A stretch of DNA of 64,000 bases. It comes from Paraspadella gotoi (lineage: Eukaryota; Animalia; Chaetognatha). A program made the translations under genes and the position numbers. Below the pieces are notes generated by a model. That model had not been told where the DNA came from. It was given only the letters and a program-made list of their open reading frames with translations, and made no database searches. Location of the stretch: positions 11,719,818 to 11,783,817 of the forward strand of contig CM119265.1 of assembly GCA_051294375.1 (NCBI GenBank). The letters run 5' to 3'. This document shows positions 1-58,525 of the stretch, piece after piece; the stretch's first letter is position 1, and each line of letters begins with the position of its first letter.

Positions 1-183
1 ACGTTTTTAAACTTTAACCCTGATGCGATAAACCTTTCGTTTTCGTTGTTATTTTCAAATAAATTCGTTGTACCACATTCAAAAACTTTGGCTTTCTCTA
101 TAATTTAACCCTGAATTCTTTCTAACTGGAACGCGTTTATCAAAATGTCCTCTCTATTACATTTTTACAAATGTTTTTAAGAT

Positions 184-20512: not shown

Positions 20513-21315
20513 GCCATAACAAAAATTATTGATAACTATTTTGTGCATAATTTTTTTTTTAAAGAATCTGTACAGGTTTTATCCTCCAGGATGTGACTAC
20601 ACTATTTTTTTTTAAAAAATGATGCTCAATTACAAAGAGTACCTAGTTGTGAATAAAATTTGTTGGGAAATATTTAGGTTACCTCCACAACTCCATAGAT
20701 AATGCCATCAATGCAGTGGCTTATACATTCTCCAGCAGGTTGTGGATGATGTTGTGGAGCCGCGAGATGGAGTAGAGACTTGAAATTTTAATATAGTTAA
20801 CTTTGCACATTTTTTCAACTAATAAACTAAGGTGGACGTCAAAATCTCTCATACTTTAGACACAGTGACTTATGATGTGAAAGGTGTGCTAAACTGTCTT
20901 TAAGCAAGGGTAGACGTAAGGGTGTTAGACCAATTTGAATGGCGATTCGTGCAAACCTATTTATTTTGACCCTGCCCCATCGTGTTAGATGTAAATTAGG
21001 ATCAGAACTACTTTTAGATTTTGACACACCCTAATGTCGCCCCCTCTATACCTTCACTAAGAACCCTCACTCATTGTTCATTGGTTTTTCCTTCAGCTCA
21101 TGGCCATGTACAAGTTTTTCATTGGCTGTTAGTTGTTAGTGAGGCCATTGAGCTTTGGGTAAGTCTCTTTCATGGTGAGGTCCTTTGTTTCGCTCCTGCA
21201 GCTTCGCCGCTGCTCCTGCGTCCGCTGGGAGGAGGAGCGAGAGGAGGATGCAGCCGCCTGCTGCATTTGGTCACTACCGTTGATGATACCATCACAGGAA
21301 ACGGATTGATCGTGT

Positions 21316-22450
21316 AGCCCTGATTCACGCAGTCCAAGCCATACTCGAAGACAGTTCCATACCCTCCAATTCTAAATGGCTGCTACAGGTGGATTTCTCC
21401 AATGCCTTTAATTGCATCGACCGTTCCACCATGCTCCTTGAAGTCAGCAAACGGCTTCCCAGCCTAAGCCCCTTTGTCAATTGGTGTTATGGGAGTGCAC
21501 CACTTCTTCGCTTTGGAGACGACATTATCCTCAGTCTGGCCGGAGTTCACCAAGGTGATCCCCTAGGACCCCTTCTCTTCGCCATAGCTCTTCATTCCTT
21601 GATCGAAAAGATCAGGCTTGAGGTACCAACCCTCCTCCTAAACAACTGGTATTTAGACGAAGGACTTTTCCTAGGTGGGCCCACCGATGTCGCCCGAGCT
21701 TTCAAGTTGCTCCAGCAAGATGCCCCCAAGCTTGGTCTCCGCATCAACCTTATCAAGCCCCCCGACATTCGCGCTTCTCTTCCTCCTTCGGAACTGCCCC
21801 TTACTGAGATCATGGACGAAGGGGTCATCATCCTTGGCGCGCCCGTTGGTTCAGCCTCTTTCTGTCAGCTCATCCTCAAAGAGCGGGTCCTAAAACTCTC
21901 TGGCCTTTTGTCCAACCTAGAATCCTTAGGTCACACCCAAGATGCTTATGCCCTGCTTCGCAGCTACTTCGGAACACCAAAGTTCTCTTACACCCTAAGG
22001 ACTGTAGCTCCAAGTCATTCTTTTCGACGAATCCCAATGCTCCTATCTCGCTTCCATCATTGAATGCTCGTTCTCACTCTCAGATCCTCAATGGGACCTT
22101 GCTTCCTTACCCGTCTCCCTTGGTGGTTTGGGAATACACAGCGCCCATGCCCACAGCGCTCCAGCCTTTATCTCCTCTATCCTGCAGACAAAGTCACTCG
22201 TAAGTCGACTGGTTTCGCCCCTCACATGTCAGCGAGACCACACTCAGGCCTTAGAGCTCCTATCCAACCTTTCTGCTGGAGCCTCCTCTCCTCCACCTGC
22301 TCAGCTTGACGCCTCAATCACTCAAAAATACCTTTCCCAACGTGTGGATGAAGCTAGGTTAAAAAACCTCAAGTCAAAGGTCTTGGATGAGCGCTTTCGA
22401 GCCGTCCTCCAATCCTTCTGTCTGCCGAGAACTGGAGACTATCTCAATGT
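21316..22450 (+). mobile_element. Truncated, frameshifted non-LTR retrotransposon reverse transcriptase (CRE/RLE-like), antisense in PRPS intron 2
   Basis: VDFSNAFN, GVHQGDPLGPLLF, WYLDEG (YLDD altered), LGAPVGS, then a frameshift into LPVSLGGLGI. Confidence 0.88.
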
Positions 22451-28200: not shown

Positions 28201-29280
28201 ACATCGAGGAAACCCAATACAACAAAGGGGATGGGCCTTGAGTGGTTATAACAAAAACAATACATGCTCGCGATGTTGATGTATTTGATCTTTTTGCGAT
28301 CCGCAAACGGAACTCTGAGAAATTTAGCGATGGAATCAACGTCATCCCTTCTCCTGCCCTTGGCTTGCGCCTACCTCCCAAATCCTTCATCATGGCTGTC
28401 AAATACCGTTTGGTCCCTGCCTATCCTGTGACAGACCTTCCGACATCTATGGAGACCACCCCATTTCAGCTTGCTCCTCTACTGGAGACAAAATTCGCCG
28501 TCATAACCTCCTTTGGGATGCTTTCTCAAACCTAAAAGACTTCGCAAAACTCCAAGCAACAAATGCAGGCTTAGATATCGGCAAAACGTCAAAGCACTTT
28601 TTTGAAAGACTGTCTGCCTTCAGCGCGAGAACGGGGACCTGCTTGCTTCCTGAAGTCCCGTGATTGAGTTGCCGTCTCATGTGGACGGAGTTGCTTGACT
28701 TTGTCCACTGAACTCTTTTTCTTTTTTATTTTTCTTTTTTGTTCACGTTTATTGTTGAAATAAGATATTTTTGCAACCATTCCCGCAATTATTTGTTTGC
28801 TCTGTTTTCTTGTCTCGCTTGTCTCGTTAGGCTTTTTTGCCTTTTCTTCTCTCTTGACCAATCAGAAAGGTGGCTTCCCTCACTGAATCGAGATGAGAGA
28901 AGAAACGAGGCAGTCTTCAACTTACCCTCAAGAAACTAACATCAAAATTCTCAAGTTCATGAACTATTTACCTTGTATTTTGAAGCATCGTTTTAATCAT
29001 CATAATCTCCCTTAATAATTATTATCTCCTCGTTTATTTGTGTAAATAAAACTTCTATAAATTATATGTAATAAACCACGCCTACTTTTTTCATTATGGT
29101 GGCAGCTGTGGGATTCGAACCTTCATCAAAGTATTGAAAATTTACGCTGATGAAGGTTCGAATCTCACCGCTGCCACCACAATGAAGGAAGTAGGCAAGG
29201 TTTATTACGGATAATTTATAGGAGTTTTATTTACACAAATAAATGAGGAGATAATAATTGTCAAATTGTCAAAACTTTTT

Positions 29281-29322
29281 TCGCTGATGAAGGTTCGTAT
29301 TAAGAACCAAAACATGTCCAAT
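29281..29322 (+). ncRNA. Degenerate hammerhead motif (G12 changed to A)
   Basis: CTGATGA-A-GGTTC(gtattaa)GAACC-AAAACATGTC followed by the family tail. Confidence 0.5.
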
Positions 29323-29452
29323 TTTAAATAATAATCGTTGTTATGTCTCAAAGTCTCTTTAATTTGCAAAACAAATTTCAAAACGCAACGAAACAAAAGG
29401 AAATACTACAAGATTAAAAATAGTAAAAAACCTGGTTATATATAAAAACTCA

Positions 29453-32500: not shown

Positions 32501-34839
32501 CAGGGTTGTGGAGCTGGCCATTTTTTCTCCAGCTCCAACTCCAGCTCCGGCCCAAAAAATTTTTCAGCTCCAGCTCCAACTCCGGCTCCATCCTAAATTT
32601 TTTTCCAGCTCCGACTCCAGCTCCACTAAAAATTTTGAGACAGCTCCAGCTACCGCTCCCAGCTCCGACCCTTTAAAGTTTAAATGATAATGTTGCTTAT
32701 ATTTAATTAGACCTAATTTTATTAATTTACTTATTTATAACTTATTTATTTGCTTATATTTAAAAAATATTAATTTAATTAATTCATGTATGAAATCATT
32801 TGATAATTCATTATTAATAATAATTATGTATTTTTTAATATTTAATGTATGAGAACAAGATTTGTACTTAAATGTAGACAAGGAGTATAAGAGTAGGTGT
32901 ATAGAGAGTAAGAGATAAACATTTACTCCCCACATAATTAATAGTTTATTTACTTTATATAAAATAACATTTATCTAAAATTTTACTTTTACATTTTAAA
33001 ATATTTTGATTATTTAATCAGGATTTTACTATCTAGTTTAAGGCTCAGTATTTCATGAGTTATGCTGCATTGAATTCTGTGTCATGTGATCACCTTTTAA
33101 GGTGATCATGAAAAGTAGGATACTTATGCACGTTAAAGGTCTTTACCTTAACCTTACCTTACCAACTGACCCACCCACCGACATAAAAGCGTCTCTAGTT
33201 AGAGGAAGGGGAAGGTCTCACTCCCAATGCCAAGGAACCAAGGACAAACTTTAGCCGCCTTGTCTTAAGGCAAGAAAGGGCAGCCAGCAGACATATCAGG
33301 TCAGATGAAGTACCTCAAGGCATTTTTCCAAGAGGATCTTTGCCCGACCCTAATATGACGAGGTCCATAAAGTTGGGAACTCAAGATCCAATTGACCTAT
33401 GACCGGTCACATCGTCACTGCTTTCCTTTGTCCAGAGCGGGGGGCCAGCTCTTTCTTCTCTTATTTTTTACTAACTCTTTCTCTTTAATGTAGTTATTGT
33501 TACTTTTACAATTTATTATTTAAATGATAATGTTTGCAAACTTAAATTGTTAATATATATTAATTATCTCAACTATCTTTCTTTCAATATCCCTCACTTT
33601 TTAGTACTATTCTTAACCTGTCTTTAACCTCCCACTGTTTTTTCTATTTTTTTGGAAACCTCTCTCTCCCTCTTTCACGTTTCACACAAGCAAACCTTAT
33701 ATTTTGTCAAAAATTTTCACAAATAATTTATTAATTTTTTGCGCGAATGAAGACTTACATCTAAAGTTTAAAAATTTTCCTTTTTCTCCTTTTAAAAATA
33801 AAATTGTTGCATAAACAAAACAAGATCGGTACATCCAATGTTTTGCGCCACAGTGATTTTCTTTTCATGTGTATTTCCTTGTGATCTCATGATTAGAAAA
33901 TTATTTTAAAAAAAGTTTTATGGTTGATCACTACTGTGCAAAGTTTCATTACAAACAACCAGACATTACAAGAAATATTCGGGGTTCCAGCCTACACTAT
34001 ATGAAAGTATGTGTCAACTGACTACACAAGTATGAAACACCATGTTACAGGCGGGTTAAGCGCCCCGTCCCTCTTAACTGCCAGACGACCACCGGGCTAG
34101 AACCCCGGACCTTTGGGTTGGGAGGCGAATAACTTGCCTCCGGCACCAATGGCCGCTGATGAACGGTTGGTGGACTAAGATCCACCATAAATGTAGAGGT
34201 TAGAGTTATAAGTCTAAGGTTAAGGTTAGTGCCTAAGTTTAAGATAACGTTTAAGTTTTAATTAGTGTTAAAGTCATGGTAAATAATATAATTAATAATA
34301 AATAATAATAATAAACAAAAGTAATAACAATTTTTAAAATAATGTTATGTTACACTTAAAGACTTTTCTTATTTAAGTTTACGAATTTGTTAACTAAGTT
34401 TATATTTGTCACCAAATTTAAATCTACATTATTATTTTATGTATACTTATTTAATATAATTGTAAATGTATCACTATGAAGCAATTAAAGCTTAATTTTA
34501 AAGGAAAAAATATTTTACCAAGTCACGGCTTAACATTTAGATTATGCAAATTATAATTTGGATTTGATTTCAAATCTATACTGAACAAACAAGAGACAAT
34601 GTTTTAATAAAGCTTTTTCCTTCTGAAAAAATTAATATTATTTTTCATTTTTATAAATTTTGTTATTTCCAAAAATTTTCTTGGAGCTGGAGTTGACCTT
34701 TTTTTACCCGCTCCGACTCCAGCTCCAGCCAAGATAAAATCTCAGCTCCAGCTCCCGCTCCGGTAAGAAAATAAATTCAGCTCCAGCTCCGGCCAAATAT
34801 GCCAGCTCCGGCAGCTCCGACTCCAGCTCCACATCCCTG
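32501..34839. mobile_element. hAT-like non-autonomous element upstream of PRPS
   Basis: TIRs CAGGGTTGTGGAGCTGG / CCAGCTCCACATCCCTG, 8-bp TSD CCGGAAAT, subterminal CCAGCTCC arrays at both ends. Confidence 0.9.
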
Positions 34840-35333: not shown

Positions 35334-37213
35334 AGGCAGTGATTTCTATTCGGGTATTTTCAACAATGGAATTGGAACTTAAATAACTATTATTTCTTTT
35401 TTTCCCACTGATAAATATGAAACACGCTTTATTAAAAAAAACGGTTGGCTATAGTTATCTTCTCCTTATATTTATAACCTAGAATTCACTGGGTGAATTT
35501 CTATGCTTTGAAAATACGGTAAGACAATTTCTTTTACGTTAATCATTCTAATCAGAGTATCTGCTGTAATTAAGATGAAACTCAAACGATTTTTCATGGT
35601 AAGGGCAAAACCGCACGCTATAATTTAAAACTTTTTTCATTTTTTCCACTATGTTTTTTCTTTCTTGAACCTTCTCTCTTTTTCTCTGTCTTTCTCTTTT
35701 CTGTCCTCATATTTCTGTGTCATCCCTTATTTTCTTCTTTTACCTTTATTTCCCTTCCTCTCAATCTCCAGAGCCAGCTGCCAAGCAGGAAAGAAGGGGA
35801 CCAGGCCCGCCTCCTCAGTAGGGGAGAAGAGGGCAAGCTGCAGGGATGACAGGTCTCGTCGACATAAGGGTCGCATTGGGATTCAGTCCCAACCTCACCC
35901 AGTCGCAGGCCAATGACCATCCCAATGACCATGCCACTGACCCTCAACTGACGGCCCTAAAGGGGAAGGGGGCCAGCTCACTTTGAGCTTCTTTCTTTAT
36001 CTTTCTCTTTTCACAAACTTCAAATTTTCCTTTCATTTTCAAATACAAAACTATAAATTATTCCAGTGTAGTTGTTATCAATTTATTTACTCCTACTTTC
36101 ATTTAGTTTATAAATTTATTTTTGGTTATACATTGTTCTAATGTAAAGTCTAATTTATTACCTTTGCATTTTCTTCTCTCACCTTTCATTTCCTTTCCCC
36201 CATGTCTCTCTTTATCTGAGCTAAAACTTCAACTGTCCTCACCCTCATATTGATATCACTTTCCCTCAATTCTTTGTTGGAAGCTTTATCCCTCTTTCTC
36301 TCTCTCTCTCTCTCTCTCAATGTTATCTTGCCAAAACTTTTGAAATTCAAAATCTAAATTTGCACTGATGAAGAACAAAACAATGTTCGAAAACATGGTC
36401 TGCATTAATTTAATAAATAAAGTCGTTGTGAAAATAAAAATTGTTTACCTAAATCTATTTACCAACGAAAAGAAAGGAAATCCATCAAATGTATTGTAAG
36501 AAAAAAAATATTGGGTAGCGTATGATTTTATTCAAAGTTTGGTTGCCTAGCAGCATTTAAAAAATCACAGAATTTTGCGGAAATTTTTTCCGCAAAAAGC
36601 TGTCGATTGAGAGAAATTAATTTCCTGACGCTTCCCCTTTCAATAAAAGAAGGCGGTTTTTTTTAATTTTTCAAATTTAGTGTGTTTCTCATCTATTAAA
36701 ACTATAAAATAAGTCAAAAATCGAGCTTTAGTTCAAATAAAACGCTCCTCACAAATCCTCACAAATTAAAAGTAGACTTAAAAATTGTTTTGCATTTCGA
36801 AGTATTTTCATTTAACAAATTGTAATAAAATATAAAAATGTAAGTTTTTGACTAGTCAATTTAAAAATTGATTCATAGGCAAATAATAGATGACCAATGG
36901 CAAATGAACCGACTCAGAGGTAAAGAAGATAAGGACCCGAATTCCGGAGTAAAATTTTTTTCTTCAACGATCTTGGCGTTCAAATCTCAAGACAAAAGTC
37001 AAAATGGACAAAAATGGACATAATTTTTTTTTATTAAAAGTAGAAAAAATGATATTTATTCTTGATTAGAAAATGCAGCAGATGATTTCAATTAATCTGT
37101 AGTCCAGCCCTCTTAGTCTTAGGATTCAAATTTAATCAATATTGTTGGTAATATTCTAGCAATATGGCAAAAAGTGGTTTTTTTGCTGAATTCCTCGATA
37201 GAAATCACTGCCT
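35334..37213. mobile_element. Non-autonomous TIR element (possibly Kolobok-like) with a nested hammerhead-bearing repeat
   Basis: 16-bp TIR AGGCAGTGATTTCTAT / ATAGAAATCACTGCCT; TTAA on the right flank only. Confidence 0.7.
36361..36404 (+). ncRNA. Minimal type I hammerhead ribozyme motif
   Basis: tgca-CTGATGA-A-GAACA(aaacaa)TGTTC-GAAA-ACATG-GTC-tgca: stems I and II pair; stem III imperfect. Confidence 0.65.
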
Positions 37214-38883
37214 TTAATCCAGCAATAAAAAAATTATCATTTATACCATTAGGTGAAATCCTTTCTTTCGTCGCGTTTTTGAATTAGAAAGAGTTTGTAG
37301 TTCAAGCAACGACTTTACTTTAAACAGTAAAGATGTTGTAGGATTCGATCCCTCATTCTTTTCATATCAGCGTGAGGTGCTATTATTGATCCAGAGAGAA
37401 GTATTAACTAATGCTAACTTATATAATTCAATTCTACATGGTAGTCTTATCCCTATTGGTAAAAAAAATCATATATAACGTTGGCCCCCCTAAAAAAATT
37501 ATCCATTCCCACCCCTTTCTGTTCAGCCTTTTAGATATTATGATTTTTCATTAATGACTTTCTAACAGAAATGATGTGTGATATCTATTAGAAAACTAGG
37601 ACAGATAGTAATCTAACCTTGTGTTGTATAGATATTCCCTCTATTTCCAGAAGACAACACTGACTTTCCCATCCCAAATTAAATTATTAGATAAATAAAA
37701 CATTTTTAAAAAAGAAAACAATATATATTAAATAATAAAGATTAAATACTAAATCCTTCATAAGATATAAAAATAGAAAATAGTGAAACAAGTAATTTTA
37801 ATTAGTGTAATTAATTAGTTTTTTCTATTTAGTTTCATTTAACTTTAGTCCCAACGGTTTTAGAAGTAAGACGACTCTTATTCAAAGTTCATTTTTATTA
37901 CTTTCATGCCAATATTTTGATTCTGATGGACGAATCATCTTTCAAGGCAGTTCTTTTGTATTTTGCCTCTCTCTCTCTCTCCCTGACTTTTTCTGGAACA
38001 ATTTACTTTTACTCTGGACTGCCTTTAAAAATGATTAGTTCATAAGAATCAAAATGTCGGCAAAAAAGTAAGAAAATTATACTTATAAATCCTACCACAA
38101 ATTGCCTATTACTAAATTTTTTTTTATTCCTTGTCAAAAAAAGTTTATATGCTTAATACTAAATCATTATCTCCTGAGCATGTGATGTCTCTTCAACAAC
38201 GAATAAAGAAATAATATTAATTCTGAATTTTAACAGTTATTAAGAAACGAATCTTTTGTAACTGATATTTATTTTGTCTTTTTAAAGCTATGATAGTTTT
38301 TTATGATATATATGATAATTCTTTGTGATACAACTGTCATATGATAATAAAAAACCATTATATTTATAATAGATTAAAAACTATTAATATTGCGTATTTT
38401 ATCAGTTTTTGAGCATAATTTCGGGTTTTGGACACTTTGTCTCTTCTGTAGACACATTTTTTTCTGCTGAAAATGGTCATAGAGCTTTGGAAAAGGTGTC
38501 ATTCTGAATGCCAATTGCTCATGAGTGGATAGGGCAATTGACTTNNNNNNNNNNNNNNNNNNNNNNNNNGAAATTTGTATGATGGTAGGAAAGTGTGTGA
38601 TTGAGCTGGATATAAAGTTTCGATAGAATCGTGCGAGTGGAAATGAGTTAAAATGGAAAAAACAAAAGTCATATTTACTCATATTATTATGTTTATTAAA
38701 AATTGGATAGATAAATCGAAATTGAATTTTGTGTGTGGGTAGGAAAGTATGTGATAAAGCTGGATATAAAATTTTTAGATAGAATCGTAGGAGTGGAAAA
38801 GAGTTCAAATTAGAAAACCAAAAGACACATTTATTTGAATTTTTTAAAGTTTCTCTCTCTCTATCTCTCTCTGATTGATTGAT

Positions 38884-40238: not shown

Positions 40239-43200
40239 TTAAATGTAAATGCAGGATGTATTAATAAATCAAATTTAATCATTACATTAATCAATTAGTC
40301 AATTAATTAATCAAATAATTAATTAATCAGTCAATCAATCCGTCCATCCGTCCCACCTTAGCAAACCAGCTCCAATAAACTCGTGATTGCTGGTTGGATT
40401 GGAATGAAATTTTGTGTGTGGTAGAAAAGTGTGTGATAAAGCTGGATATAAAGTTTCGACGGGAATCGTGTGATTGGAAATGAGTTTAAGTGGAAAACAT
40501 AAGTCGCATTTACTAAAATAATTTTACTTATTTAGCCAATAGTCTTACTAATTAATCATAATTGGATGGATAGATGTGAGTTCAATGTGTAACGGTTCCG
40601 CGTACAAACGTTGCATTTAGGAAAAAAACGACTCTTTCCACTATTGTTCAGTTGTTAACTATCAATATTGATTAACTATGTGCCACAACACAAATTGGCC
40701 GAACTAAAGGATTGGTTAGAAACATCTCACCCGTTTCTAATGATAAAATAGTACCATATTTGGCAACTTTTAGGAAAAAAAATTATGTCCATTTTTTTCC
40801 ATTTTTACTTTCGACTTCTGATTTAAATGCAAGAAGTTGAGAAATTTTTTTACTTTGGAAATCCGTTCTTCTTATCTTCTTTATCCCCTGGGTACATAAT
40901 TTATTCTGCTTAAAATTATTTTACAGTTGCTCTATGAAATTTAATTTGTTAAAGTTAACAATCCCAAAAAGTTGCCAGTTTCAGTCTTTAATTGATTGCT
41001 TAAACAAAAATAAATTCAAATTAGCCTCTCTTAAATTTACATAAATATCCTTTCTTGAATAAGCCTTTTAACACCTACAAAATATTTAAAAAAAACTTTT
41101 TCATTTAGTCCGCAAATTAATTTTTAAAAGACAACTTTTTAATTTGTGATTTTTTGGACTTGCGTTTATTTTTATAAGAGAATATACTTATCAATCATCA
41201 TTTATTAGTTTAAAAGAGTAGGTGACGGCTTTGTCCTTTTTTCTAATTTTATTCAATTTCATTTTATTCAATTCATTTCATTCATTTCATTCAATTCATT
41301 TATTCAATTCATTTAATTCCATTCATTATTGAGTTGAGTGACGGAGAATACAATTGCTTGAAGTCGAAAAGTTTTATATCATTAAATTGAAATTGATTTC
41401 CTCAAATTTTTGTGATCATATTTTAATAGAAACGCAGATTTGATTTTTTTATTTGAAATAATGAATTTAAATTGATTTTCAGGTCCCAAAAATCGTTTCA
41501 AAATTGGAAAAAAAACTAGATTTTAATTATTTATTTATTTTACTTTTATTAAAAAAACTAGATTTTTTTTTCCTTTTACTACTAAATCGATATTCAATGT
41601 AACTTTTTGGATTAGTTCATTGGGTTGTTGCACTAAAGCTTTTAAATATTTATTAATATATAATAATTATATAAAGTTTTGACGGAATTGTGCCAGTGGA
41701 AATGAGTTTAGATGGAAAAAACATAAGTTACATTTACTTGAATCTTTAAGATTAATGATTACTAATAAATGTTTTAATTAATTAATTAATTAATGTGAAA
41801 AAATGATGCAAGTTAAAAAATTCTTAAAAGCATAAAGATCGTCGCAATTGCATAAAAAGAGAGAGAGAGAGAGAGAGAGTGAGAGAGAGAAGGAGACATA
41901 AAATAAAATAGAGGATATTTGTTTGTTTGGATAAAATGTAAACGAAACATATTTAATAACTGTCCGAACCCAATTTTAAGGACANNNNNNNNNNNNNNNN
42001 NNNNNNNNNNNNNNNNNNNNNNNNNNNNNNNNNNNNNNNNNNNNNNNNNNNNNNNNNNNNNNNNNNNNNNNNNNNNNNNNNNNNNNNNNNNNNNNNNNNN
42101 NNNNNNNNNNNNNNNNNNNNNNNNNNNNNNNNNNNNNNNNNNNNNNNNNNNNNNNNNNNNNNNNNNNNNNNNNNNNNNNNNNNNNNNNNNNNNNNNNNNN
42201 NNNNNNNNNNNNNNNNNNNNNNNNNNNNNNNNNNNNNNNNNNNNNNNNNNNNNNNNNNNNNNNNNNNNNNNNNNNNNNNNNNNNNNNNNNNNNNNNNNNN
42301 NNNNNNNNNNNNNNNNNNNNNNNNNNNNNNNNNNNNNNNNNNNNNNNNNNNNNNNNNNNNNNNNNNNNNNNNNNNNNNNNNNNNNNNNNNNNNNNNNNNN
42401 NNNNNNNNNNNNNNNNNNNNNNNNNNNNNNNNNNNNNNNNNNNNNNNNNNNNNNNNNNNNNNNNNNNNNNNNNNNNNNNNNNNNNNNNNNNNNNNNNNNN
42501 NNNNNNNNNNNNNNNNNNNNNNNNNNNNNNNNNNNNNNNNNNNNNNNNNNNNNNNNNNNNNNNNNNNNNNNNNNNNNNNNNNNNNNNNNNNNNNNNNNNN
42601 NNNNNNNNNNNNNNNNNNNNNNNNNNNNNNNNNNNNNNNNNNNNNNNNNNNNNNNNNNNNNNNNNNNNNNNNNNNNNNNNNNNNNNNNNNNNNNNNNNNN
42701 NNNNNNNNNNNNNNNNNNNNNNNNNNNNNNNNNNNNNNNNNNNNNNNNNNNNNNNNNNNNNNNNNNNNNNNNNNNNNNNNNNNNNNNNNNNNNNNNNNNN
42801 NNNNNNNNNNNNNNNNNNNNNNNNNNNNNNNNNNNNNNNNNNNNNNNNNNNNNNNNNNNNNNNNNNNNNCTTGTTAAAGAGAGAGAGAGAGAGAGAGAGA
42901 GTGAGAGAGAGAGAAACAAAAACAACAGAGATAAATAAATAATAAAGATACATTTTTGCAATGTACAACAAAGATAAAGGAGTTTGAAAAACTAACATTG
43001 AAGAAATTTTAACATTTAACTAGTGAATAAATAAGTAATTAGCTAAGGGATAGTTAAGTGAAAATGAAATATGAAAGAAAGTAGTTTTTAGTTTTAGTTG
43101 ATAATTAGGAGATTAAGAAAGTGAAATTCAAGGGAAAGAAAGAGCTCAAAGTGAGCTGGCCCCCTTGTTTTATGCAAATGAAGGACAAGGACGATGATGA

Positions 43201-44499
43201 CGGGCATTGGCGTGTCAGTGGCTGAGAGGAGAGTATGACCGAACTGATGAATGCCGGATTGGGAAGCGATCCTTGCGGAAAAGATCCCAGGGCTACTCTT
43301 ATGTCTCTTTGGCCTGATACGCCTGCCGGCTGCCCTCTTCTCGCCTGCTGACGAGGTGGGCAGTTGTCCGTTTCTGCCACTTTTGTGACAGGAGTGACGG
43401 ACTCCTCTCCCTCCTCCTGAAGCCGTCGCTTTGGGCGACGCTCAGTCCGCAGAGGGAGGGGCTGAGTTGCTGCATTAGATATATAATAAATAAGCAAGCC
43501 GAAACATGTCCAACTACTAATAAAAAATCGTTGTTAAATTCAAAATTCTTTGCTCTCTCCAATACCTATGAACAACGAAAAAGAAAGGATTAACGCATCA
43601 AATTAAATTATAAAATTAACCGATTTTAACGGTTAACCGTTAAAAACGTTAGTTTTAACGGTTAAGCGAAGTTCCTCAAAAATTAATGGTTAACGGAACC
43701 CTACACCAGACACCTTTTTGGTGATGCCGTGAAATTTTTTGATTTTTGCAAGTAATTAATATGCATCAACGCGACCACCCCAAAGCAGTTTTAAATTTAA
43801 AAACGACAGTGGCCATTTTGGTCACATCTTATCTATGGTCCTCATTTACTAATTTCACCATAAAACTTTTGTTATGAAATCCATTATTGTTTGACTATTT
43901 CAAACTTTGTCTTTGCCAGTTTTTTTTTTAGCAATACAAAGTATTTGAATCTGTGATCTCATTTTTTTTGTTTTTACGAAAATTTTAAAAAATGTACTAA
44001 AAATGCCTTTATTTTGTATAGCTCTAAAATACCATCGCAGGAGAATCAACCTTACCAAAAGCTAATCGGATCGAAGGCACGGATGAACAGAATGACACCT
44101 TTTTGAAGACTGATCATTTTGCGCGGAAAAAAATATGTCTAAAAAGGAGGAAGCATTTTTTTTTGCATGGAACTCCTGTATTTTTTGTCATACATAATTG
44201 ATAATATAAATGACAAAAAATACAGGAGTTCCATGCAAAAAAAATGCTTCCTCTTTTTTATGTCATAAATGAGACAACTCATATGAATCACAAAAGGCCA
44301 AAGTTTCTTGATATCTAAATTTTATTTTTCGATTAGTTTTTGCCTATTGAATCTTTTTGCTTTCAGTTTAGTTAGTTAGTAGTAGTAGTAGTAGTAGTAG
44401 TTAGTTTAGTTAGTCCTACGATGTTACATTAAAATTCCGAAAAATATCATGGTATCAAAGTGTCGAAAGGGAAAAAAACATCGTATTCATTTGTGTTTT

Positions 44500-47279: not shown

Positions 47280-48174
47280 CTAAATCCAAATACAGAATCA
47301 AACTATCGTTTAGACACATTTGAATCCGACAAAGTTTTAATTAGATAACGAGTCTGGGTGTCATTCTGTTCGTTTTTCCAAGCTCTTTTTAACTAAAAAA
47401 GTTTTAATTAAAAAAAAAACTTTTTCGCCCGAGCCAGGGGTGTTGAAGAGTCAAAATATGGAAATTCACCATTTTTTAGTATTTTTTACCTTTTTCATTT
47501 AATTTTTTTAATATAATAATCTTTAATCAAGTTAATTACTTCTGATAATAATTTTAATTTATCCTATTTAACTGTTTTTAAAACATTCATTAAAAAATAT
47601 TAGTTTTTAGCTTAAGCCAAGGGTGTTGAAGAGTTAAAATATTTAAATATTTTTTTGTAATATTTATAAATTATAATTTACTATTTTTTTAAAGATAACT
47701 TATTTTAATCATGGTAATGAAAATATTTGATATCTTTAAATGCTTTGAGGTGACTTACCACAGCTTTAAGTTAATCAATTGATTTAATAATGTTTTTAAA
47801 ACTGAAAACCCCAAAAACTTTTATGATCCAAAGCAATTAATTTTAATTTTTAATCACAAAATGTAATTGTTACAAGATAAAATTATTTAAATAATATTCG
47901 GATATTATTATAAAAAAATGTTTACTTTATAATATATAAATATAATTTTATTAAAAAAATAATTTAAAAATGATATCTGCATATAAATTTTGTACGGATA
48001 AGAGTAATAATTTGGTTTAACTCTATATACAAATATTTTGTTATTAAATAAAATAATTTTTTTTAATATACAATAATTTTTAACCATTGTATTAATCCTT
48101 TCAGCTTCGTTGAGTGTAGAGATTTAAACAAAGTTTGAAAAAATATTTTCATCAACGATTTTATTTAATGATAT

Positions 48175-48217
48175 ACGGACATGTTTCGACTCTTTATTTT
48201 CGAGTCTTCATCAACGT
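48175..48217 (-). ncRNA. Minimal type I hammerhead motif (C3U variant), inverted partner of 48443-48488
   Basis: acg-TTGATGA-A-GACTC(gaaaataaa)GAGTC-GAAACATGTC-cgt. Confidence 0.6.
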
Positions 48218-48272
48218 TAGTGATGCATTTACAAATTTGTGTAAAAGAAACATTATATTTTTTGAAATGTAA

Positions 48273-48307
<35 letters not shown>

Positions 48308-48442
48308 CACCATTTCAAAATCAACTTATTCCCCTTTCTCCTGTCCTTGCCTTCACCTTTCCTGAAATCTGACCACTGTCCTTTCTCAATTCTTAGTTGG
48401 AATCTCTCTCTCTCTATCCCCATTGTGAAAAATACAACTGTC

Positions 48443-48488
48443 AAATGCTGATGAAGACTCGAAAACAAGAGTCGAAACATGTCCAATA
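48443..48488 (+). ncRNA. Minimal type I hammerhead ribozyme motif
   Basis: CTGATGA-A-GACTC(gaaaacaa)GAGTC-GAAAC-AT-GTC: intact core, palindromic ACATGT stem III, weak stem I. Confidence 0.7.
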
Positions 48489-49577
48489 CTTTGTAATAAA
48501 ATTGTTGTAAAAATACTAAAAACTTTTGTTTTCGAATCTGCTATCTTATTGAACAACGAAAAGAGAAAAATTACACAAAATTTTAATTAAAATATAAATC
48601 ATTTCTATCCTAGCATCCCACGTAAGTCCCTCCCCTAGCCCTAACCTCCGCTTCACGTCCAAGGCCAAGCATGAACCTTGAACCTATCAGCGCCCATAAA
48701 ACTTTTCCCATCTGTAACTTTCCAGTTGGGTATAACTACAACAACCTTGTTGATCGTAATACTAACTTTTACTTATTCAACCTGAATTACAACTACCTCA
48801 AATGTTAAAACTAAACACTAACCCTTAACCTAAATTTGGTAAAATTGCTATAACTAGAACATTAGTTTCAGTTCATTAACAAAATTATTATTTTCTATGC
48901 GATATCGCATAAAATCTGGATAGTGGATATCATTTGAATAATTATATCTTTGTTGTAACAATTTCATTATATGATTAAAAAATTTTATGAATTTGTTTTA
49001 AAGATGAATCTTTAAAAAAAACTTTTTAGAAATAGGTCACAATAGTTTGTAATGCTTTTAATTATAAAAAAATCAATTAACTATGTTAATTAACTTGAAA
49101 ACCATTTAAAATTATCAAATTTTTTTATGATCATGATTAAATATGTAATCCTTAAAAAATTAGTAAATTATCATTTGAAAATACTAAAAAAGACAATTTG
49201 GAAAATTTAGTTTTTAATACCCCTGGCTTAAGCCCTAAACTAATATTTTTTGTGAATGAATGTTTTAAAAATAGTTAAATATGATAAATTAAAAGCAGTT
49301 CATTAGTAATTAACTGGATTAATGATAATTATATTAAAAAATTTACTGAAAAAAGCTAAAAATACTCATAAAAGGTGAATTTCATATTTTGGCTCTTTAA
49401 CACCCCTGGCTCGGGCGAAAAAAGTTTTTTTTTTTAAATAAAACTTTTTTAGTTAAAAGGAGCTTGGAAAAACGAACAGAATGACACCGAGACTGGTTTG
49501 TTTATTTAAAACATTGTCGGATTCAAATGTGTCTACTATCGTTCCACTCCTAAAATTCAAAAGGAGACACACAACAC

Positions 49578-51182: not shown

Positions 51183-53271
51183 AGATAATGATTTCTGAAC
51201 TTAAGGCCTGGGATCATTCAAACAAGAATTGCATAAAGCTTTGTACAATCTATCATTATGTAGAGAAAACATTCGTTTTAGGCGAGGGGGGATCAGGATT
51301 CCGGGTTTTCACGCTTTTTTTGGTCACCGCCTGAAAACCGCCTGAAGACCAAATTAAATATTATAAAAATTGTTAGATTTCGAAAGCGGGGGGTCTTGGG
51401 AAGCCCGTGCCAGTGGAGCACTCAAAAAATTCGGTCATCTTGATATGGTACGATGGACCCAAAGTGGACTGGTTTTTACGGCGTTTTCGCTTTCGTAACT
51501 TGAACTTACTCATTCTCCTAGACTAGACTAAATACATGGGTATGGTTACACAGTCAGATAGATTCGTTACTTGTCTAAATCAGGGTATCTAATTTTTTTT
51601 AAAAAATTACCAAGCTTGCTTGTTTAATTTAACAATCCTGTTAACTAGTTTTTCGGGCATTAATTCCCGCGTGTCGCCAGTCTTAATTAGTTCTTTTAAA
51701 CTGACTGAGAGATCAATTACTGCGTTGTCTTGTTTCTGGGTGGAGCACTCGAAAAATTTACGTGTTTTTAATATGAAATAAGAGTAAATCCTTGACTTTT
51801 GTTGGCTCTGGGACTCTTTACACGGCCCTATATGCGCATAACTTACGTTACCGCCAGAACCAAACCGAGAGCCATGGCACTTCGTCGAGCCAGCCCCGTT
51901 TCACGAATCAGAGGTGTTGATTTTTCGTGTTTATTAACATTATTCCCGCCCGATTTTTTAAATTTTTTTTCAAAAAACTATACTAATTATTGTAAAAAGA
52001 AGCTTCAGCCAGATTTGAACCGGAAACCTTTTCGTAACATTGAAATCCGGCGCGCTAAGCACTTGGCCAAATGATTTTCAAAAAAAATTAGTACAAATTA
52101 AATTATATAAAGCTGTAGGTTCGCTTTTAATTTTTGGGGGAAACAAAAAATTCAACGTTCGAAGGCAGAGATTTTGACATCCGAGTCCCAAGTTTCCTGA
52201 TTCGTGACGGAACGTCGCAACGACGACGATTGATACGAAGAAGAAAGCGAATATCTGGCTTATTTTTAATGTTTGAAATTGAGGAAAAGTCAAAGCTGCG
52301 ACGTTGAACATTTTCACGTTGCTTTTAAGGTGTTTTATTAAGTGTTTTTAACCAGTTGCTTATTGTGAAACAACTGAAACTGTTTCTATACATGGTCGCC
52401 TATTGTATCAATAATAATAAATAGGCTATGATTAAGAGAATGAAAGAATGAAATCGTTTTGAAAAAAGAATAATTTAAGTTTTCGATTTGCATAAAAACA
52501 AGTTTGAGCAAACAATGTCGGATCTGCCTACAATAATTAAGAAGTAATAAGCTAATATGATGATAATTCTTGGTAATGTTTTCTGACTTTCAATTTTTGA
52601 TCTTAACAGATCATAACACGTTGTAACGTAAACAAGTTTGAGCAAACAATGTCGGATCTGCCCACAATCATTAACGGTAATTAATTAATAATTAATTTAA
52701 GTTAATTAATTAATTAAGCATTAATTATTTTGATCCGAAAGTTTGTTTTGATTGATTAATTAAGGAAAAAAAAGCATAATCAATTAGTGAAACACTTTTT
52801 TTGATTTTTTCCATTTAAACTAATTTCCACTCAAACGATTCCATCGAAACTTGATTTCCAGCTTAATCACACACTTTTCTACCCAAATACAAAATTTCAA
52901 GTCAATCGCCCCATTCACTCATGAGTAATTGGTGTTCAAATAGTGAAATTTTTTTCCCATTTAAACTCATTTCCACTTGGACGATTTCATCGAAACTTCA
53001 TATCCAGCTCAATCACACACTTCCCTACCCACACACAAAATTTCATTCCAATCCATCCATCCAATCACGAGTAATTGGTATTTTTTGCTAAGGTGGGACG
53101 GATGGACAGACAAACGAACATCGTTTTTTTTTGCATAATTTATTATAATTCGATGTTCTAACATGATATAAGTGAATGTCCGACAAGATTGAGGGACTGA
53201 AAGCAGATCAGACTAAAAAGAAAAGAAAAACCAAAATTTATATTGAGGTTTTTGAATTTTTTTTATTAAAT

Positions 53272-53347
53272 AACGAGATGGCCGAGTGGTTAAAAACTAA
53301 GACTTGGACGCAGAATGGAATGGTAGGATTCGAATCCCACTCAAGGT
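53272..53347 (+). pseudogene. Degenerate tRNA-like sequence or SINE head (duplicate at ~57083-57160)
   Basis: A box TGGCCGAGTGG and altered B box GGATTCGAATCCC; no intact cloverleaf. Confidence 0.5.
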
Positions 53348-53880
53348 AAACTTTTACAATAAACTGCTATGTCCCAAAAGTGGTCGTAGAGCAATGGCTT
53401 ACCGAAGGGGGAATAGCCATATGAGTACTCGAAAACAAGACAAAATCTCCCTTTGAAATTATCATTTGTACTCGAGTTACAGAGCTTGCCGTCTCAGAAA
53501 TTCTAGACGGATGCTACTGTACTTTTGTTATTTTTAGAAAATTTGGATGTTTCGTAAAACTGCAGCGTTTTGACCGGGAGTCACGACTAAGTTAAAAACA
53601 GTCGATACAGTTTTCGAGATCCATCAACTATTTGCCCAAAAGTTAACAGGCTTCATAATACAAATACTGAAAACGCTGTCTCAATCGGATCATCCTCAAA
53701 AGACCCCGAGCGGACTCCAAAGTTGCCGCTTTGCGCTCGTCCGCCGCGATGGCCATCGCGAATCTATGACGGCCCATTAGAGATCGTTTCTCGAGGCGCC
53801 GTTCTTTCGCCTCGACTTCGCGGGCCGACTAGAAGTCTCCACTGACCGTTTCAAGCCCTTCGTCGACGACTAAGAAAAAA

Positions 53881-53920
53881 ATGGACATGTTTCGATTCTA
53901 ATTCAAGTCTTCATCAGCGT
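53881..53920 (-). ncRNA. Hammerhead motif with weakened stem II (duplicate at ~57698-57737)
   Basis: CTGATGA-A-GACTTGAATTAGAATC-GAAACATGTC on the minus strand. Confidence 0.5.
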
Positions 53921-54009
53921 TATTTTTGTTGTGAATTTAATCTACAGTTTGTGCAAAAAAAATTAAATTTAAAAAAAAATTAAGATTAAATGTACGTTAA
54001 AAAGAAAGA

Positions 54010-54390
54010 TAGGTTAATGGCAAGTTAGGGTTAATGGCAAGTTAGGGTTTATGGCAAGTTAGGGTTTATGGAAGTTAGGGTTTAATGGGGGCAAGTTAGG
54101 GATAGGGGTAAATGAGGGTTAAGAGTAAATTAGGGGTAAATTAGGGTTGAGGTAAATTAGGGTAGGGGGTAAATTAGGGTTGGGGGTAAATTAGGGTTGG
54201 GTAAATTAGGGTTGGGGGTAAATTAGGTTGGGGGTAAATTAGGGTTGGGGGTAAATTAGGGTTAGGGTAAATTAGGGTTGGGTAAATTAGGGTTAAGTAG
54301 GGTAATATTAAGGGTTAGGAGTAATTAGGGTTAAGGGTAAATTAGGGTTAAGGGTAAAATTAGGGTTAAGGGTAAATTAGGGTTAAAGAT
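54010..54390 (+). repeat. TTAGGG-containing G-rich minisatellite (duplicate at 57828-58230)
   Basis: ~16-17-nt units TTAGGGTTAATGGCAAG grading into TTAGGGTTGGGGGTAAA and TTAGGGTTAAGGGTAAA. Confidence 0.9.
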
Positions 54391-55346
54391 AAATTACGGA
54401 AAGGGGCAAGTTTCCTGCATTTTCAGCCCCCTCCATCGCCATCTTGGTTCTAATTTTCCACGCCGCCGCCGTTGCCTATACCTGGGGCTTGGGGGTGCGA
54501 AGCTCATTTTCCCGCTCTTAAAAAAGAATACTAGCCTGGGCGTTGCATCACCGCCCCTCCCGCCGAGGACTTTATTGGCAATGTAAACAATGTCGGATTT
54601 GTGATAATTTAGCGGTAATCAGCTAAACGGATTATAATCACAATTGTAAAGTCCAGACGACCGTAACTCAGATGCTCTTTTNNNNNNNNNNNNNNNNNNN
54701 NNNNNNAAAGAGAGAGATTCCAGTTGGTTGCTGTGATCGCAACAGGAACGGGGTCCGGAGACGGTAAGGTTGGGCCGCCTTATCGATCATTTTTCAGGTG
54801 AGGGTGAAGACCAGATCACGTGGACCTTCCAGGGCGCGGCTCCGCAAGGGCGTGGCTTGGCGGAGGGGGGTGTATCTGTGTTGGGCCGCGGCGGTTCCCA
54901 CTTCGCAGTTTTGGATCGAAAATGCAAGCTTCTTCCCTGCGGTCCTAGGATGGCGGGCCTGGACGCAATCACGTCGAGAATTGGGAGAAGAAAATTCTAA
55001 CACTTTTTTACCGCGGTTTCCGCGCGCGCCCAAATTGTAGAAACGCGTTGGTCGTCGTATTATTGTGATGCATTGATCTGAAAAACGGACGGCCAACCGG
55101 TTTCAAAACCCAGTGAGGTTATTTTTAGCTTACGATGGCAGCGAATTTTTAACTTGTTTTTAAATTGTTTTAATAATGTTTTTAACCCTGTTTTTAACAT
55201 GGTTTACATTTGTTTTATTATGTTTTAAAACGTTTATTTTCGGCCTTTTTAATTGATATTAATACATGTTATTTTAACGCCTGCACTAACCTTCGAATCG
55301 GGCCGAGAAAAATTGGTTATTTGAGCTACAAGACAAACAACATGGC

Positions 55347-58300
55347 TATGGTTACACAGTCAGATAGATTCGTTACTTGTCTAAATCAGGGTATCTAATT
55401 TTTTTTAAAAAATTACCAAGCTTGCTTGTTTAATTTAACAATCCTGTTAACTAGTTTTTCGGGCATTAATTCCCGCGTGTCGCCAGTCTTAATTAGTTCT
55501 TTTAAAACTGACTGAGAGATCAATTACTGCGTTGTCTTGTTTCTGGGTGGAGCACTCGAAAAATTTACGTGTTTTTAATATGAAATAAGAGTAAATCCTT
55601 GACTTTTGTTGGCTCTGGGACTCTTTACACGGCCCTATATGCGCATATAACTTACGTTACCGCAGAACCAAACCGAGAGCCATGGCACTTCGTCGAGCCA
55701 GCCCCGTTTTCACGAATCAGAGGTGTTGATTTTTCGTGTTTATTAACATTATTCCCGCCCGATTTTTTAAATTTTTTTTCAAAAAAACTATACTAATTAT
55801 TGTAAAAAGAAGCTTCAGCCAGATTTGAACCGGAAACCTTTTCGTACATTGAAATCCGGCGCGCTAAGCACTTGGCCAAATGATTTTTCAAAAAAAAATT
55901 AGTACAAAATTAAATTATATAAAGCTGTAGGTTCGCTTTTAATTTTTGGGGGAAACAAAAAATTCAACGTTCGAAGGCAGATTTTGACATCCGAGTCCCA
56001 AGTTTCCTGATTCGTGACGGAACGTCGCAACGACGACGATTGATACAAGAAGAAGAAAGCGAATATCTGGCTTATTTTTAATGTTTGAAATTGAGGAAAA
56101 GTCAAAGCTGCGACGTTGAACATTTTCACGTTGCTTTTAAGGTGTTTTATTAAGTGTTTTTAACCAGTTGCTTATTGTGAAACAACTGAAACTGTTTCTA
56201 TACATGGTCGCCTATTGTATCAATAATAATAAATAGGCTATGATTAAGAGAATGAAAGAATGAAATCGTTTTGAAAAAAGAATAATTTAAGTTTTCGATT
56301 TGCATAAAAACAAGTTTGAGCAAACAATGTCGGATCTGCCTACAATAATTAAGAAGTAATAAGCTAATATGATGATAATTCTTGGTAATGTTTTCTGACT
56401 TTCAATTTTTGATCTTAACAGATCATAAACACGTTGTAACGTAAACAAGTTTGAGCAAACAATGTCGGATCTGCCCACAATCATTAACGGTAATTAATTA
56501 ATAATTAATTTAAGTTAATTAATTAATTAAGCATTAATTATTTTGATCCGAAAGTTTGTTTTGATTGATTAATTAAGGAAAAAAAGCATAATCAATTAGT
56601 GAAACACTTTTTTTGATTTTTTCCATTTAAACTAATTTCCACTCAAACGATTCCATCGAAACTTGATTTCCAGCTTAATCACACACTTTTCTACCCAAAT
56701 ACAAAATTTCAAGTCAATCGCCCCATTCACTCATGAGTAATTGGTGTTTCAAATAGTGAAATTTTTTTCCCATTTAAACTCATTTCCACTGGACGATTTC
56801 ATCGAAACTTCATATCCAGCTCAATCACACACTTCCCTACCCACACACAAAAATTTCATTCCAATCCATCCATCCAATCACGAGTAATTGGTATTTTTTG
56901 CTAAGGTGGGACGGATGGACAAGACAACGAACATCGTTTTTTTTTGCATAATTTATTATAATTCGATGTTCTAACATGATATAAGTGAATGTCCGACAAG
57001 ATTGAGGGACTGAAAGCAGATCAGACTAAAAAGAAAAGAAAAACCAAAATTTATATTGAGGTTTTTGAATTTTTTTTATAAATAACGAGATGGCCGAGTG
57101 GTTAAAAACTAAGACTTGGACGCAGAATGGAATGGTAGGATTCGAAATCCCACTCAAGGTAAACTTTTACAATAAACTGCTATGTCCCAAAAGTGGTCGT
57201 AGAGCAATGGCTTACCGAAGGGGAATAGCCATATGAGTACTCGAAAACAAGACAAAATCTCCCTTTGAAATTATCATTTGTACTCGAGTTACAGAGCTTG
57301 CCGTCTCAGAAATTCTAGACGGATGCTACTGTACTTTTGTTATTTTTAGAAAATTTGGATGTTTCGTAAAACTGCAGGCGTTTTGACGCGGGAGTCACGA
57401 CTAAGTTAAAAACAGTCGATACAGTTTTCGAGGATCCATCAACTATTTGCCCAAAAGTTAACAGGCTTCATAATACAAATACTGAAAACGCTGTCTCAAT
57501 CGGATCATCCTCAAAAGACCCCGAGCGGACTCCAAGTTGCCGCTTTGCGCCTCGTCCGCCGCGATGGCCATCGCGAATCTATGACGGCCCATTAGAGATC
57601 GTTTTCTCGAGGCGCCGTTCTTTCGCCTCGACTTCGCGGGCCGACTAGAAGTCTCCACTGACCGTTTCAAGCCCTTCGTCGACGACTAAGAAAAAAATTG
57701 GACATGTTTCGATTCTAATTCAAGTCTTCATCAGCGTTATTTTTGTTGTGAATTTAATCTACAGTTTGTGCAAAAAAAATTAAATTTAAAAAAAATTAAG
57801 ATTAAATGTGACGTTAAAAAGAAAGATAGGTTAATGGCAAGTTAGGGTTATATGGCAAGTTAGGGTAATGGCAAGTTAGGGTTAATGGCAAGTTAGGGTT
57901 TATGGCAAGTTAGGGTTTATGGCAAGTTAGGGTTTAATGGGCAAGTTAGGGATAGGGGTAAATGAGGGTTAAGAGTAAATTAGGGGTAAATTAGGGTTGA
58001 GTGTAAATTAGGGTAGGGGGTAAATTAGGGTTGGGGCTAATTAGGGTTGGGTAAATTAGGGTTGGGTAAATTAAGGTTGGGGGTAAATTAGGGTTGGGGG
58101 TAAATTAGGGTTAAGGGTAAATTAGGGTGGGGTAAATTAGGGTTAAGGGTAAATTAAGGTTAAGAGTAATTAGGGTTAAGGGTAAATTGGGTTAAGGGTA
58201 AATTAGGGTTAAGGGTAAATTAGGTTTAAGATAAATTACGGAAAGGGGCAAGTTTCCTGCATTTTCAGCCCCCTCCATCGCCATCTTGGTTCTAATTTTC

Positions 58301-58525
58301 CACGCCGCCGCCGTTGCCTATACCTGGGGCTTGGGGGTGCGAAGCTCATTTTCCCGCTCTTAAAAAAGAATACTAGCCTGGGCGTTGCATCACCGCCCCT
58401 CCCGCCGAGGACTTTATTGGCAATGTAAACAATGTCGGATTTGTGATAATTTAGCGCGGTAATCAGCTAAACGGATTATAATCACAATTGTAAAGTCCAG
58501 ACGACCGTAACTCAGATGCTCTTTT
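55347..58525 (+). repeat. 3.1-kb direct duplication, copy 2
   Basis: Differs from copy 1 mostly by small indels. Confidence 0.95.

What the first reader, a model, noticed from the sequence alone, without database searches (positions are those of the whole stretch)
48100..48590. Dispersed repeat family carrying minimal type I hammerhead ribozymes, here as an inverted pair
Seen: two motifs point away from each other (48175-48217 minus, 48443-48488 plus), each reading (C/T)TGATGA-A-GACTC-loop-GAGTC-GAAACATGTC and followed by a similar tail (..ATAAA..GTTG..CAACGAA..). The motif also occurs at 36361 (+), 29284 (+), 53881 and 57698 (-), and as a 3' half at ~43497 (+). Stem II differs between copies (GACTC/GAGTC, GAACA/TGTTC, GGTTC/GAACC) but stays paired, which is covariation. 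Established: minimal hammerheads with an extra base after A9 and a tiny palindromic stem III occur in Penelope-like element pLTRs and retrozymes, can cleave as dimers, and inverted pLTRs are a Penelope hallmark. Inference: this genome has an abundant non-autonomous, ribozyme-processed retroelement family. The minus-strand copy lies sense within the MBLAC2 pre-mRNA.
Basis: partly seen in the sequence, partly recalled or inferred. Interest (0 to 1): 0.8.

Follow-up and report, generated by a model that had tools for sequence, protein, structure and literature searches.

The report
Penelope-type hammerhead stubs, mirror-image pair
These are two back-to-back copies of an abundant repeat that carries the sequence of a tiny self-cutting RNA (a hammerhead), most likely left by a Penelope-type jumping gene; the kind is known from many animals, and the one unusual hint is a predicted pairing between the hammerhead's loop and the repeat's own tail.

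Summary
Both cores (48448-48483 +, 48214-48178 -) meet the four traits published for minimal hammerheads of Penelope-like elements (PLEs). The window holds 5 independent whole motifs, one 3' half and two decayed copies. Contigs from three studies pile up on the core and stop matching at its edges, so the family is genome-wide and the core is the conserved part. The repeat is longer than the ribozyme: a GC-rich segment, pyrimidine-rich stretch, conserved box and (CT)n upstream, and a tail with a 7-bp helix downstream. A second head-to-head arrangement lies at 43.5 kb. The pair is an insertion inside a 2.2-kb fold-back DNA element in an intron of a metallo-beta-lactamase-fold gene. 'Non-autonomous' and 'ribozyme-processed' are not shown; no PLE ORF was found. 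Cleavage of the host pre-mRNA is unlikely: the sense copy has C3U, a 3-bp helix I, and is predicted to be locked in a duplex with its mirror copy. One lead: loop II of each copy is complementary to its own tail about 40 nt past the cut site (post hoc, 5 copies). Verdict: new family of a known kind.

The parts
48448..48483 (+). Minimal type I hammerhead core C3-C17; intact core, 5-bp stem II, palindromic ACATGT, 2-bp helix I; predicted cut after 48483
48178..48214 (-). Second hammerhead core, C3U variant, 3-bp helix I; sense in the host intron
48484..48577 (+). Tail of plus copy: AATAAA at +12, helix 48502-48508 with 48553-48559, end near 48577
   Evidence: contigs over 48577-48900 run on with other letters (table 8)
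48085..48177 (-). Tail of minus copy with the same helix; left end approximate
48215..48256 (-). Upstream linker of the inverted copy, homologous to the linker before the 36365 copy; 5' truncation point near 48256, with an 8-nt inverted repeat at the junction
48340..48412 (+). Conserved upstream box, also before the 36365 copy (36216-36294); as abundant in contigs as the hammerhead
48522..48535 (+). Tail segment complementary to loop II and 3' strand of stem II (candidate pseudoknot or inhibitory pairing)
47311..49535 (.). Host fold-back DNA element: ~440-bp arms 84% identical, 8-bp direct repeats at 47303-47310 and 49536-49543 (hAT-like, label recalled)
47280..49577 (-). GT-AG intron of an MBL-fold gene; flanking exons join in frame
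   Evidence: Pfam PF00753 in upstream exons
35770..36495 (+). Longest visible family copy: GC-rich segment, 33-nt conserved hairpin (35966-35998), pyrimidine-rich stretch, box, (CT)n, hammerhead 36365-36400, tail
42880..43600 (.). Second head-to-head structure: body on the minus strand (43480-42880) running into an N gap, and a 5'-truncated 3' half hammerhead plus tail on the plus strand (43490-43600)
29284..29415 (+). Family copy with G12A and stem II GGTTC/GAACC, with tail
53884..53917 (-). Tail-less copy (duplicated at 57701-57734)
37250..37376 (-). Decayed copy: tail kept, core disrupted
33739..33819 (+). Strongly decayed copy with (CT)n and linker upstream
   Evidence: (E 0.0044)

Best explanation
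The pair is a real head-to-head duo of minimal hammerhead motifs and is likely the 5'-truncated 3' end (pseudo-LTR with tail) of a Penelope-type retroelement, with a shorter inverted copy at its 5' side, inserted into an older fold-back DNA element in an intron. Shown: sequence, orientation, abundance, edges, host context. Inferred: a Penelope-type reverse transcriptase starts copying near the tail helix about 95 nt past the cut site, stops early, and a second, inverted piece is added either in the same event from another family RNA or by later insertion into the first copy (the two tails are only 60 of 102 columns alike). In active master copies the hammerhead would cut weakly, as a dimer through the ACAUGU palindrome or with protein help. 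These genomic copies are probably inert.
For: All four published traits of PLE minimal hammerheads are met (extra base after A9 in 5 of 5, G10.1-C11.1 in 5 of 5, palindromic 15.2-16.2/loop 3, variable paired stem II). Contig loose ends cluster at 48447 (37, 34, 20, 16 contigs in X1, X2, X5, X9) and 48484 (42, 43, 21, 22), of 678, 571, 196, 212 laid; listed changes inside the core are only loop II indels. Conservation comes in islands: tail helix columns 94% against 42% between them. The head-to-head geometry with a shorter inverted arm occurs twice in the window and is the described PLE form (passages of PMC8557442, PMC3846280; opposite-strand pairs 100-700 bp apart in PMC4209133). Cofold forms the 6-bp intermolecular helix III for 3 of 6 copies. 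In 9 distinct same-core motifs from AT-rich metagenome contigs, stem II pairs in 22 of 27 cells against 14.7 expected, p 0.0017.
Against: No PLE reverse transcriptase or GIY-YIG domain among 160 of 344 window ORFs of 55 aa or more or 61 of 66 ORFs around 10 metagenome motifs. The GC-rich segment where a GIY-YIG C-terminus might be expected has no credible homologue. No clear target-site duplication at the pair's ends. The arms are not near-identical, as a fresh one-template inversion would be. Window-only stem II covariation is marginal (6 of 120); helix I states are all one transition from CG and prove nothing. No cleavage or expression data.
Confidence: 0.8

Rival explanations
1. A genuinely non-autonomous, short PLE-dependent family (retrozyme-like monomer of 0.3-0.8 kb) that never had its own RT, rather than stubs of an autonomous element. 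This is a sub-case of the best explanation that differs in what the master copy is.
For: The longest visible bodies (35770-36320, 43480-42880) have no RT or endonuclease signature; conserved non-coding islands (box, 33-nt hairpin 32 of 33 identical); preprint 10.64898/2026.07.22.740005 (part 1 of 5 and passages read) derives animal retrozymes from pLTRs and reports many monomers.
Against: No head-to-tail repeat among 8 copies; hammerhead is the minimal PLE type, not the canonical type described for retrozymes (passages of PMC7229834); only ~600 nt upstream is visible, so an ORF further up is not excluded.
Confidence: 0.35
2. The sense copy cleaves the MBL-gene pre-mRNA and affects its expression.
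For: It is sense within the intron and has intact stem II, GAAA and GUC.
Against: C3U breaks the C3-G8 pair (single C3G or G8C abolish activity in a PLE hammerhead, PMC11167929 part 2 read; C3U itself not tested there); no second sense copy nearby for a dimer; the transcript 48580-48080 folds the core into a duplex with the mirror copy, -138.7 kcal/mol, z -7.8; monomers of this class showed no cleavage in PMC4209133.
Confidence: 0.05
3. A DNA-level hairpin motif of a DNA transposon or Helitron derivative that resembles a hammerhead by chance, or cargo of the surrounding fold-back element.
For: The pair lies inside a fold-back element; DNA hairpins can also keep compensated stems.
Against: The single-stranded core letters, the extra base and the palindrome are all kept; 6 other family loci in the window lie outside that element; higher-depth contigs of the element's interior leave the window sequence at 48577, the tail's end.
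Confidence: 0.07

Closest known systems
Minimal hammerheads (min-HHR) in pseudo-LTRs of metazoan PLEs (Cervera and De la Pena 2014, PMC4209133; parts 1-2 of 4 read)
   Same: Type I core, extra base after A9, G10.1-C11.1, small palindromic helix III, very short helix I, mostly solo dispersed copies, some opposite-strand pairs, high variability between copies.
   Different: Stem II is 5 bp (7-8 in Schistosoma); no link to a PLE ORF shown here; that paper's read parts describe no loop II pairing with the 3' tail.
EN+ PLE insertions with inverted 5'-truncated pLTR and tail (PMC8557442, PMC3846280; passages read)
   Same: Head-to-head arms, the inverted arm shorter; small palindrome at the junction; ~170-nt inverted arm.
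   Different: Arms only 59% alike in the tail; no clear target-site duplication; no ORF between direct repeats seen.
Poseidon PAc of Anolis (Frangieh et al. 2024, PMC11167929; parts 1-2 of 4 read)
   Same: Element end defined 85-92 nt past the hammerhead cut site in a stem-loop; here a conserved helix closes at +68 to +76 and the end is near +94.
   Different: In PAc the ORF starts in stem II; here no open frame follows. No biochemistry here.
Animal non-LTR retrozymes (PMC7229834 passages; 10.64898/2026.07.22.740005)
   Same: Short, AT-rich, non-coding, type I hammerhead.
   Different: No tandem units in the window; minimal rather than canonical ribozyme; no circular RNA evidence.

Membership tests
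PLE-type minimal hammerhead | Core CUGANGA, GAAA, UH | tested here: met
   Exact in 48448 and 53917; single lesions in 48214 (C3U), 29284 (G12A); 1-nt extras in 36365
PLE-type minimal hammerhead | Extra nucleotide between A9 and 10.1; G10.1-C11.1 pair | tested here: met
   5 of 5 copies
PLE-type minimal hammerhead | Palindromic 15.2-16.2 and loop 3 allowing a dimer | tested here: met
   ACAUGU self-duplex -6.0 kcal/mol in 4 of 5 independent copies
PLE-type minimal hammerhead | Compensatory change in stem II | tested here: inconclusive
   24 of 25 cells paired, 4 of 5 pairs change on both sides, but 6 of 120 swaps reach it; same-core motifs of other organisms p 0.0017
PLE-type minimal hammerhead | Self-cleavage as dimer | not testable with these tools
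   Needs in vitro assay
Penelope-like element | Telomerase-like RT with or without GIY-YIG ORF linked to the repeat | tested here: inconclusive
   None in 160 of 344 window ORFs; no whole genome held, so absence in 64 kb is uninformative
Penelope-like element | 5'-truncated copies with adjacent inverted copy | tested here: met
   48.2-48.5 kb and 43.5 kb
Penelope-like element | Target-site duplication and optional 30-40 bp tail extension | tested here: inconclusive
Non-LTR retrozyme | Head-to-tail tandem units each with a hammerhead | tested here: not met
   0 of 8 copies in the window; elsewhere in the genome unknown
Non-LTR retrozyme | Canonical hammerhead with 6-bp helix I and loop 1-loop 2 contacts | tested here: not met
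   Helix I 1-4 contiguous pairs
Non-LTR retrozyme | Circular monomer RNA | not testable with these tools
   Only contigs, no raw RNA reads

The most novel reading that the evidence does not exclude
These hammerheads are not minimal: loop II pairs 5-9 bp with a covarying segment 39-45 nt past the cut site, displayed in the loop of a conserved tail helix. This would be either the missing tertiary contact or an off-switch that the element's protein releases when it binds the tail, which would explain why PLE hammerheads cut poorly when tested without their tail and why one needs its protein.
Probability: 0.3. Interest if true: 0.6.

Novelty: new member of a known kind. Interest (0 to 1): 0.3.

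Why it matters
As a family it is ordinary: minimal hammerheads in Penelope-type ends occur by the thousand in many animal genomes. It adds an animal of a poorly sampled lineage (LTV1 only 48% identical to its best named relative). What could matter is the tail: the role of PLE hammerheads is an open question, and a covarying loop II-tail pairing gives a cheap construct-level test of whether the tail activates or blocks cleavage.

Tried and rejected
Rfam (whole window, E up to 1): no hammerhead family among 17 matches; minimal motifs fall below those models, so this is no evidence against. No whole genome held. Sequencing runs: no RNA holder listed; X9 is only guessed to be RNA. Summed contig depth (6,116 over the core in X5 against 7-12 for long single contigs) is not a copy number and was not used as one. 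The one hit of the GC-rich segment's peptide (P0167, E 1e-12) is a sum of seven weak matches in a repetitive plant LEA_2 protein; rejected. Atlas search gave no answer. The RT at 21287-22063 (RVT_1) looks non-LTR by recalled motifs, is not linked to any copy, and was not placed on a tree. Named homologue for the MBL gene: none eukaryotic among 44 hits or 9 PDB hits beyond distant MBL folds. Helix I 'covariation' rejected as evidence. CpG-decay argument: 8 of 25 CpG sites in conserved blocks are TG or CA against 1 of 130 other positions (one search printed 3; one block was off by one, corrected), but window CpG observed/expected is 1.09 and 4 of the 8 are one position, so not relied on. Tail helix covariation: 41 of 42 cells paired, 43 of 500 shuffles as high; not significant. 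Metagenome scan: 15 loci; 4 GC-rich and 2 duplicate motifs dropped before the count. Lunse et al. (dimer cleavage) is not held; I saw it only as cited in PMC6765202. One search for C3U data gave 1 paper whose passage showed no measurement. One search for Penelope + pseudoknot/loop II (20 of 49 listed, listing only) showed no title on a loop II-tail pairing; the supplements of PMC4209133 and PMC11167929 (Fig. S2C on folding) were not seen and may bear on it.

Full report
Observation. Both motifs are present: plus core 48448-48483 and minus core 48214-48178, 233 nt apart and pointing away from each other. The other listed copies are there too. A pattern written from the copies matches 6 times and never in 150 local shuffles; a generic hammerhead descriptor finds 6 (4 family, 2 unrelated) against a mean of 1.6 and maximum of 5. 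The copies at 53917 and 57734 lie in one duplicated block that differs by 4 substitutions and 33 gaps, so there are 5 independent whole motifs; a profile search adds decayed copies at 37376-37250 and 33739. The many single-base gaps show that the assembly is indel-noisy, so the two extra letters in the 36365 core may be errors.

Hammerhead anatomy. All 5 copies have the extra A after A9 and a G10.1-C11.1 pair; stem II pairs in 24 of 25 cells with GACTC/GAGTC (twice), GAACA/TGTTC, GGTTC/GAACC and GACTT/GAATC. With so few copies, strand swaps reach that in 6 of 120. Helix III is 2 bp around a palindrome that self-pairs over 6 bp, and cofold builds that dimer helix for 3 of 6 copies. Helix I has 1-4 contiguous pairs. 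These are the traits listed for PLE minimal hammerheads in PMC4209133. The same core in other organisms' contigs also has a paired stem II: 22 of 27 cells in 9 distinct AT-rich motifs, p 0.0017 (4 GC-rich and 2 duplicate loci of 15 dropped).

Genome-wide signal. Contigs of four runs from three studies (X1 may be the source) were laid on 48310-48900 at 80% likeness: 678, 571, 196 and 212 records. Depth peaks on an upstream box (48350-48409) and on the core (48450-48489). The best-supported loose ends sit at 48447 and 48483-48484, the edges of the core, with unrelated flanks (24 of 328 rows shown). Inside the core only loop II indels are listed. The loose-end consensus ends in C before 48447 and starts with G after 48484 in all four runs, so the common helix I is CG with CG. 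Two higher-depth contigs (X5, X9) cover 48577-48900 and leave the window sequence at 48577, which marks the repeat's 3' end and suggests that other copies of the host element lack it there.

The repeat is longer than the ribozyme. Downstream: AATAAA at +9 to +13 in 4 of 5 tails and a 7-bp helix from +17..+23 to +68..+76 in 6 of 6; helix columns are 94% alike, the sequence between them 42%. Upstream of 48448 and 36365: linker, (CT)n and the box. Further up, 35770-36320 (+) is collinear with 43480-42880 (-), including a GC-rich segment and a 33-nt hairpin 97% identical. At 43.5 kb that minus-strand body is head to head with a 3' half hammerhead and tail on the plus strand; its own end falls in an N gap. 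So the geometry of the finding occurs twice in 64 kb, as described for PLE insertions. The two tails of the pair align at 60 of 102 columns, no better than other pairs of copies and at the top of the shuffled range (mean 51%, max 59%), while the cores match at 34 of 36. The arms therefore probably came from different family members, or are old.

Host context. The pair lies inside a 2.2-kb fold-back element (47311-49535, arms 84% identical, 8-bp direct repeats) that fills the intron 49577-47280 of a minus-strand gene with Lactamase_B exons. The minus copy is sense, but it carries C3U and the transcript is predicted to pair it with the mirror copy (z -7.8). An effect on the host mRNA by cleavage is unlikely.

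No partner protein. Pfam found no PLE RT or GIY-YIG domain in 160 of 344 ORFs, nor in 61 of 66 ORFs near 10 metagenome motifs; the GC-rich peptide has no credible homologue. With no genome held the autonomous versus non-autonomous question stays open.

A lead. Loop II of each copy is complementary to its own tail at +39 to +45: AAACAA/TTGTTT-type in 48448 and 36365, AAATAAA/TTTGTTT in 48214, ATTAA/TTAAT in 29284, AGCAA/TTGCT in 43501 (loop inferred there). Own-tail pairing ranks 2, 1, 5 and 1 of 120 swaps for four window choices, the last being the whole tail; it survives leaving out any copy (1-5 of 24) and appears only in windows covering +31 to +60 among nine slid windows. In 48448 it extends to 14 bp and out-competes stem II (-24.6 against -16.0 kcal/mol). 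Against: it was found after looking, n is 5, the sequences are AT-rich, and the commonest contig variant in that segment (T48527C) has no listed partner change at 48467 (contigs are short and unlinked). Loop-to-tail pseudoknots are known in other hammerheads (passages of PMC3088659), and a PLE hammerhead that cuts only with its protein is reported. Two earlier notes of this scan on other genomes prompted this test; they are leads, not support.

Verdict. A new family of a known kind: PLE-type minimal hammerhead stubs (0.8). Interest 0.3; 0.6 if the loop II-tail pairing holds (probability 0.3).

Noticed in passing
window 29012-29297: A 122-bp fold-back whose arms both start with the 5' half of the neighbouring hammerhead (16 nt shared with 29282-29297) and continue into 25 nt that look like the 3' end of a long-variable-arm tRNA plus CCA (tRNA-Leu label recalled; Rfam and ARAGORN gave no call; a similar 22-nt stretch in L016). 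Read on the other strand it resembles an LTR end plus primer-binding site. Possibly a template switch at shared GGTTCG.
   Followed up: partly
window 47303-49543: Non-autonomous fold-back DNA element with 22-nt perfect termini starting TAG and an 8-bp duplication (hAT-like) filling almost the whole intron.
   Followed up: partly
window 53978-54400 and 57813-58250: 17-nt repeats containing telomere-like CCCTAA lie 60-500 nt upstream of the tail-less hammerhead copy on its own strand; EN-negative PLEs pair such repeats with hammerheads (PMC8557442 passage), but a separate repeat family is as likely.
   Followed up: no
window 52237-54614 and 56049-58456: Near-identical tandem block differing almost only by single-base gaps: likely an assembly duplicate from noisy long reads.
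   Followed up: yes
window 35520-35770: GT...polypyrimidine-CAG intron-like stretch directly upstream of the GC-rich segment of the longest copy; PLEs are known to keep introns. Not shown to belong to the repeat.
   Followed up: no
window 53283-53360: tRNA-derived SINE-like head with A- and B-box-like words on the plus strand; a similar B-box piece interrupts the decayed copy at 37335-37350.
   Followed up: no
window 5-100: Two tail-only fragments of the family in opposite orientations at the window's start.
   Followed up: no
window 21287-22523 and 28242-28663: Decayed non-LTR retrotransposon RT (RVT_1) and a possible restriction-like endonuclease remnant within the PRPS gene's introns.
   Followed up: partly
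window 48219-48223 (minus) and loose ends: TCACT just upstream of helix I in the minus copy and in contig consensus of two runs; an initiator-like TCACT is described in a rotifer pLTR (PMC3846280 passage).
   Followed up: no
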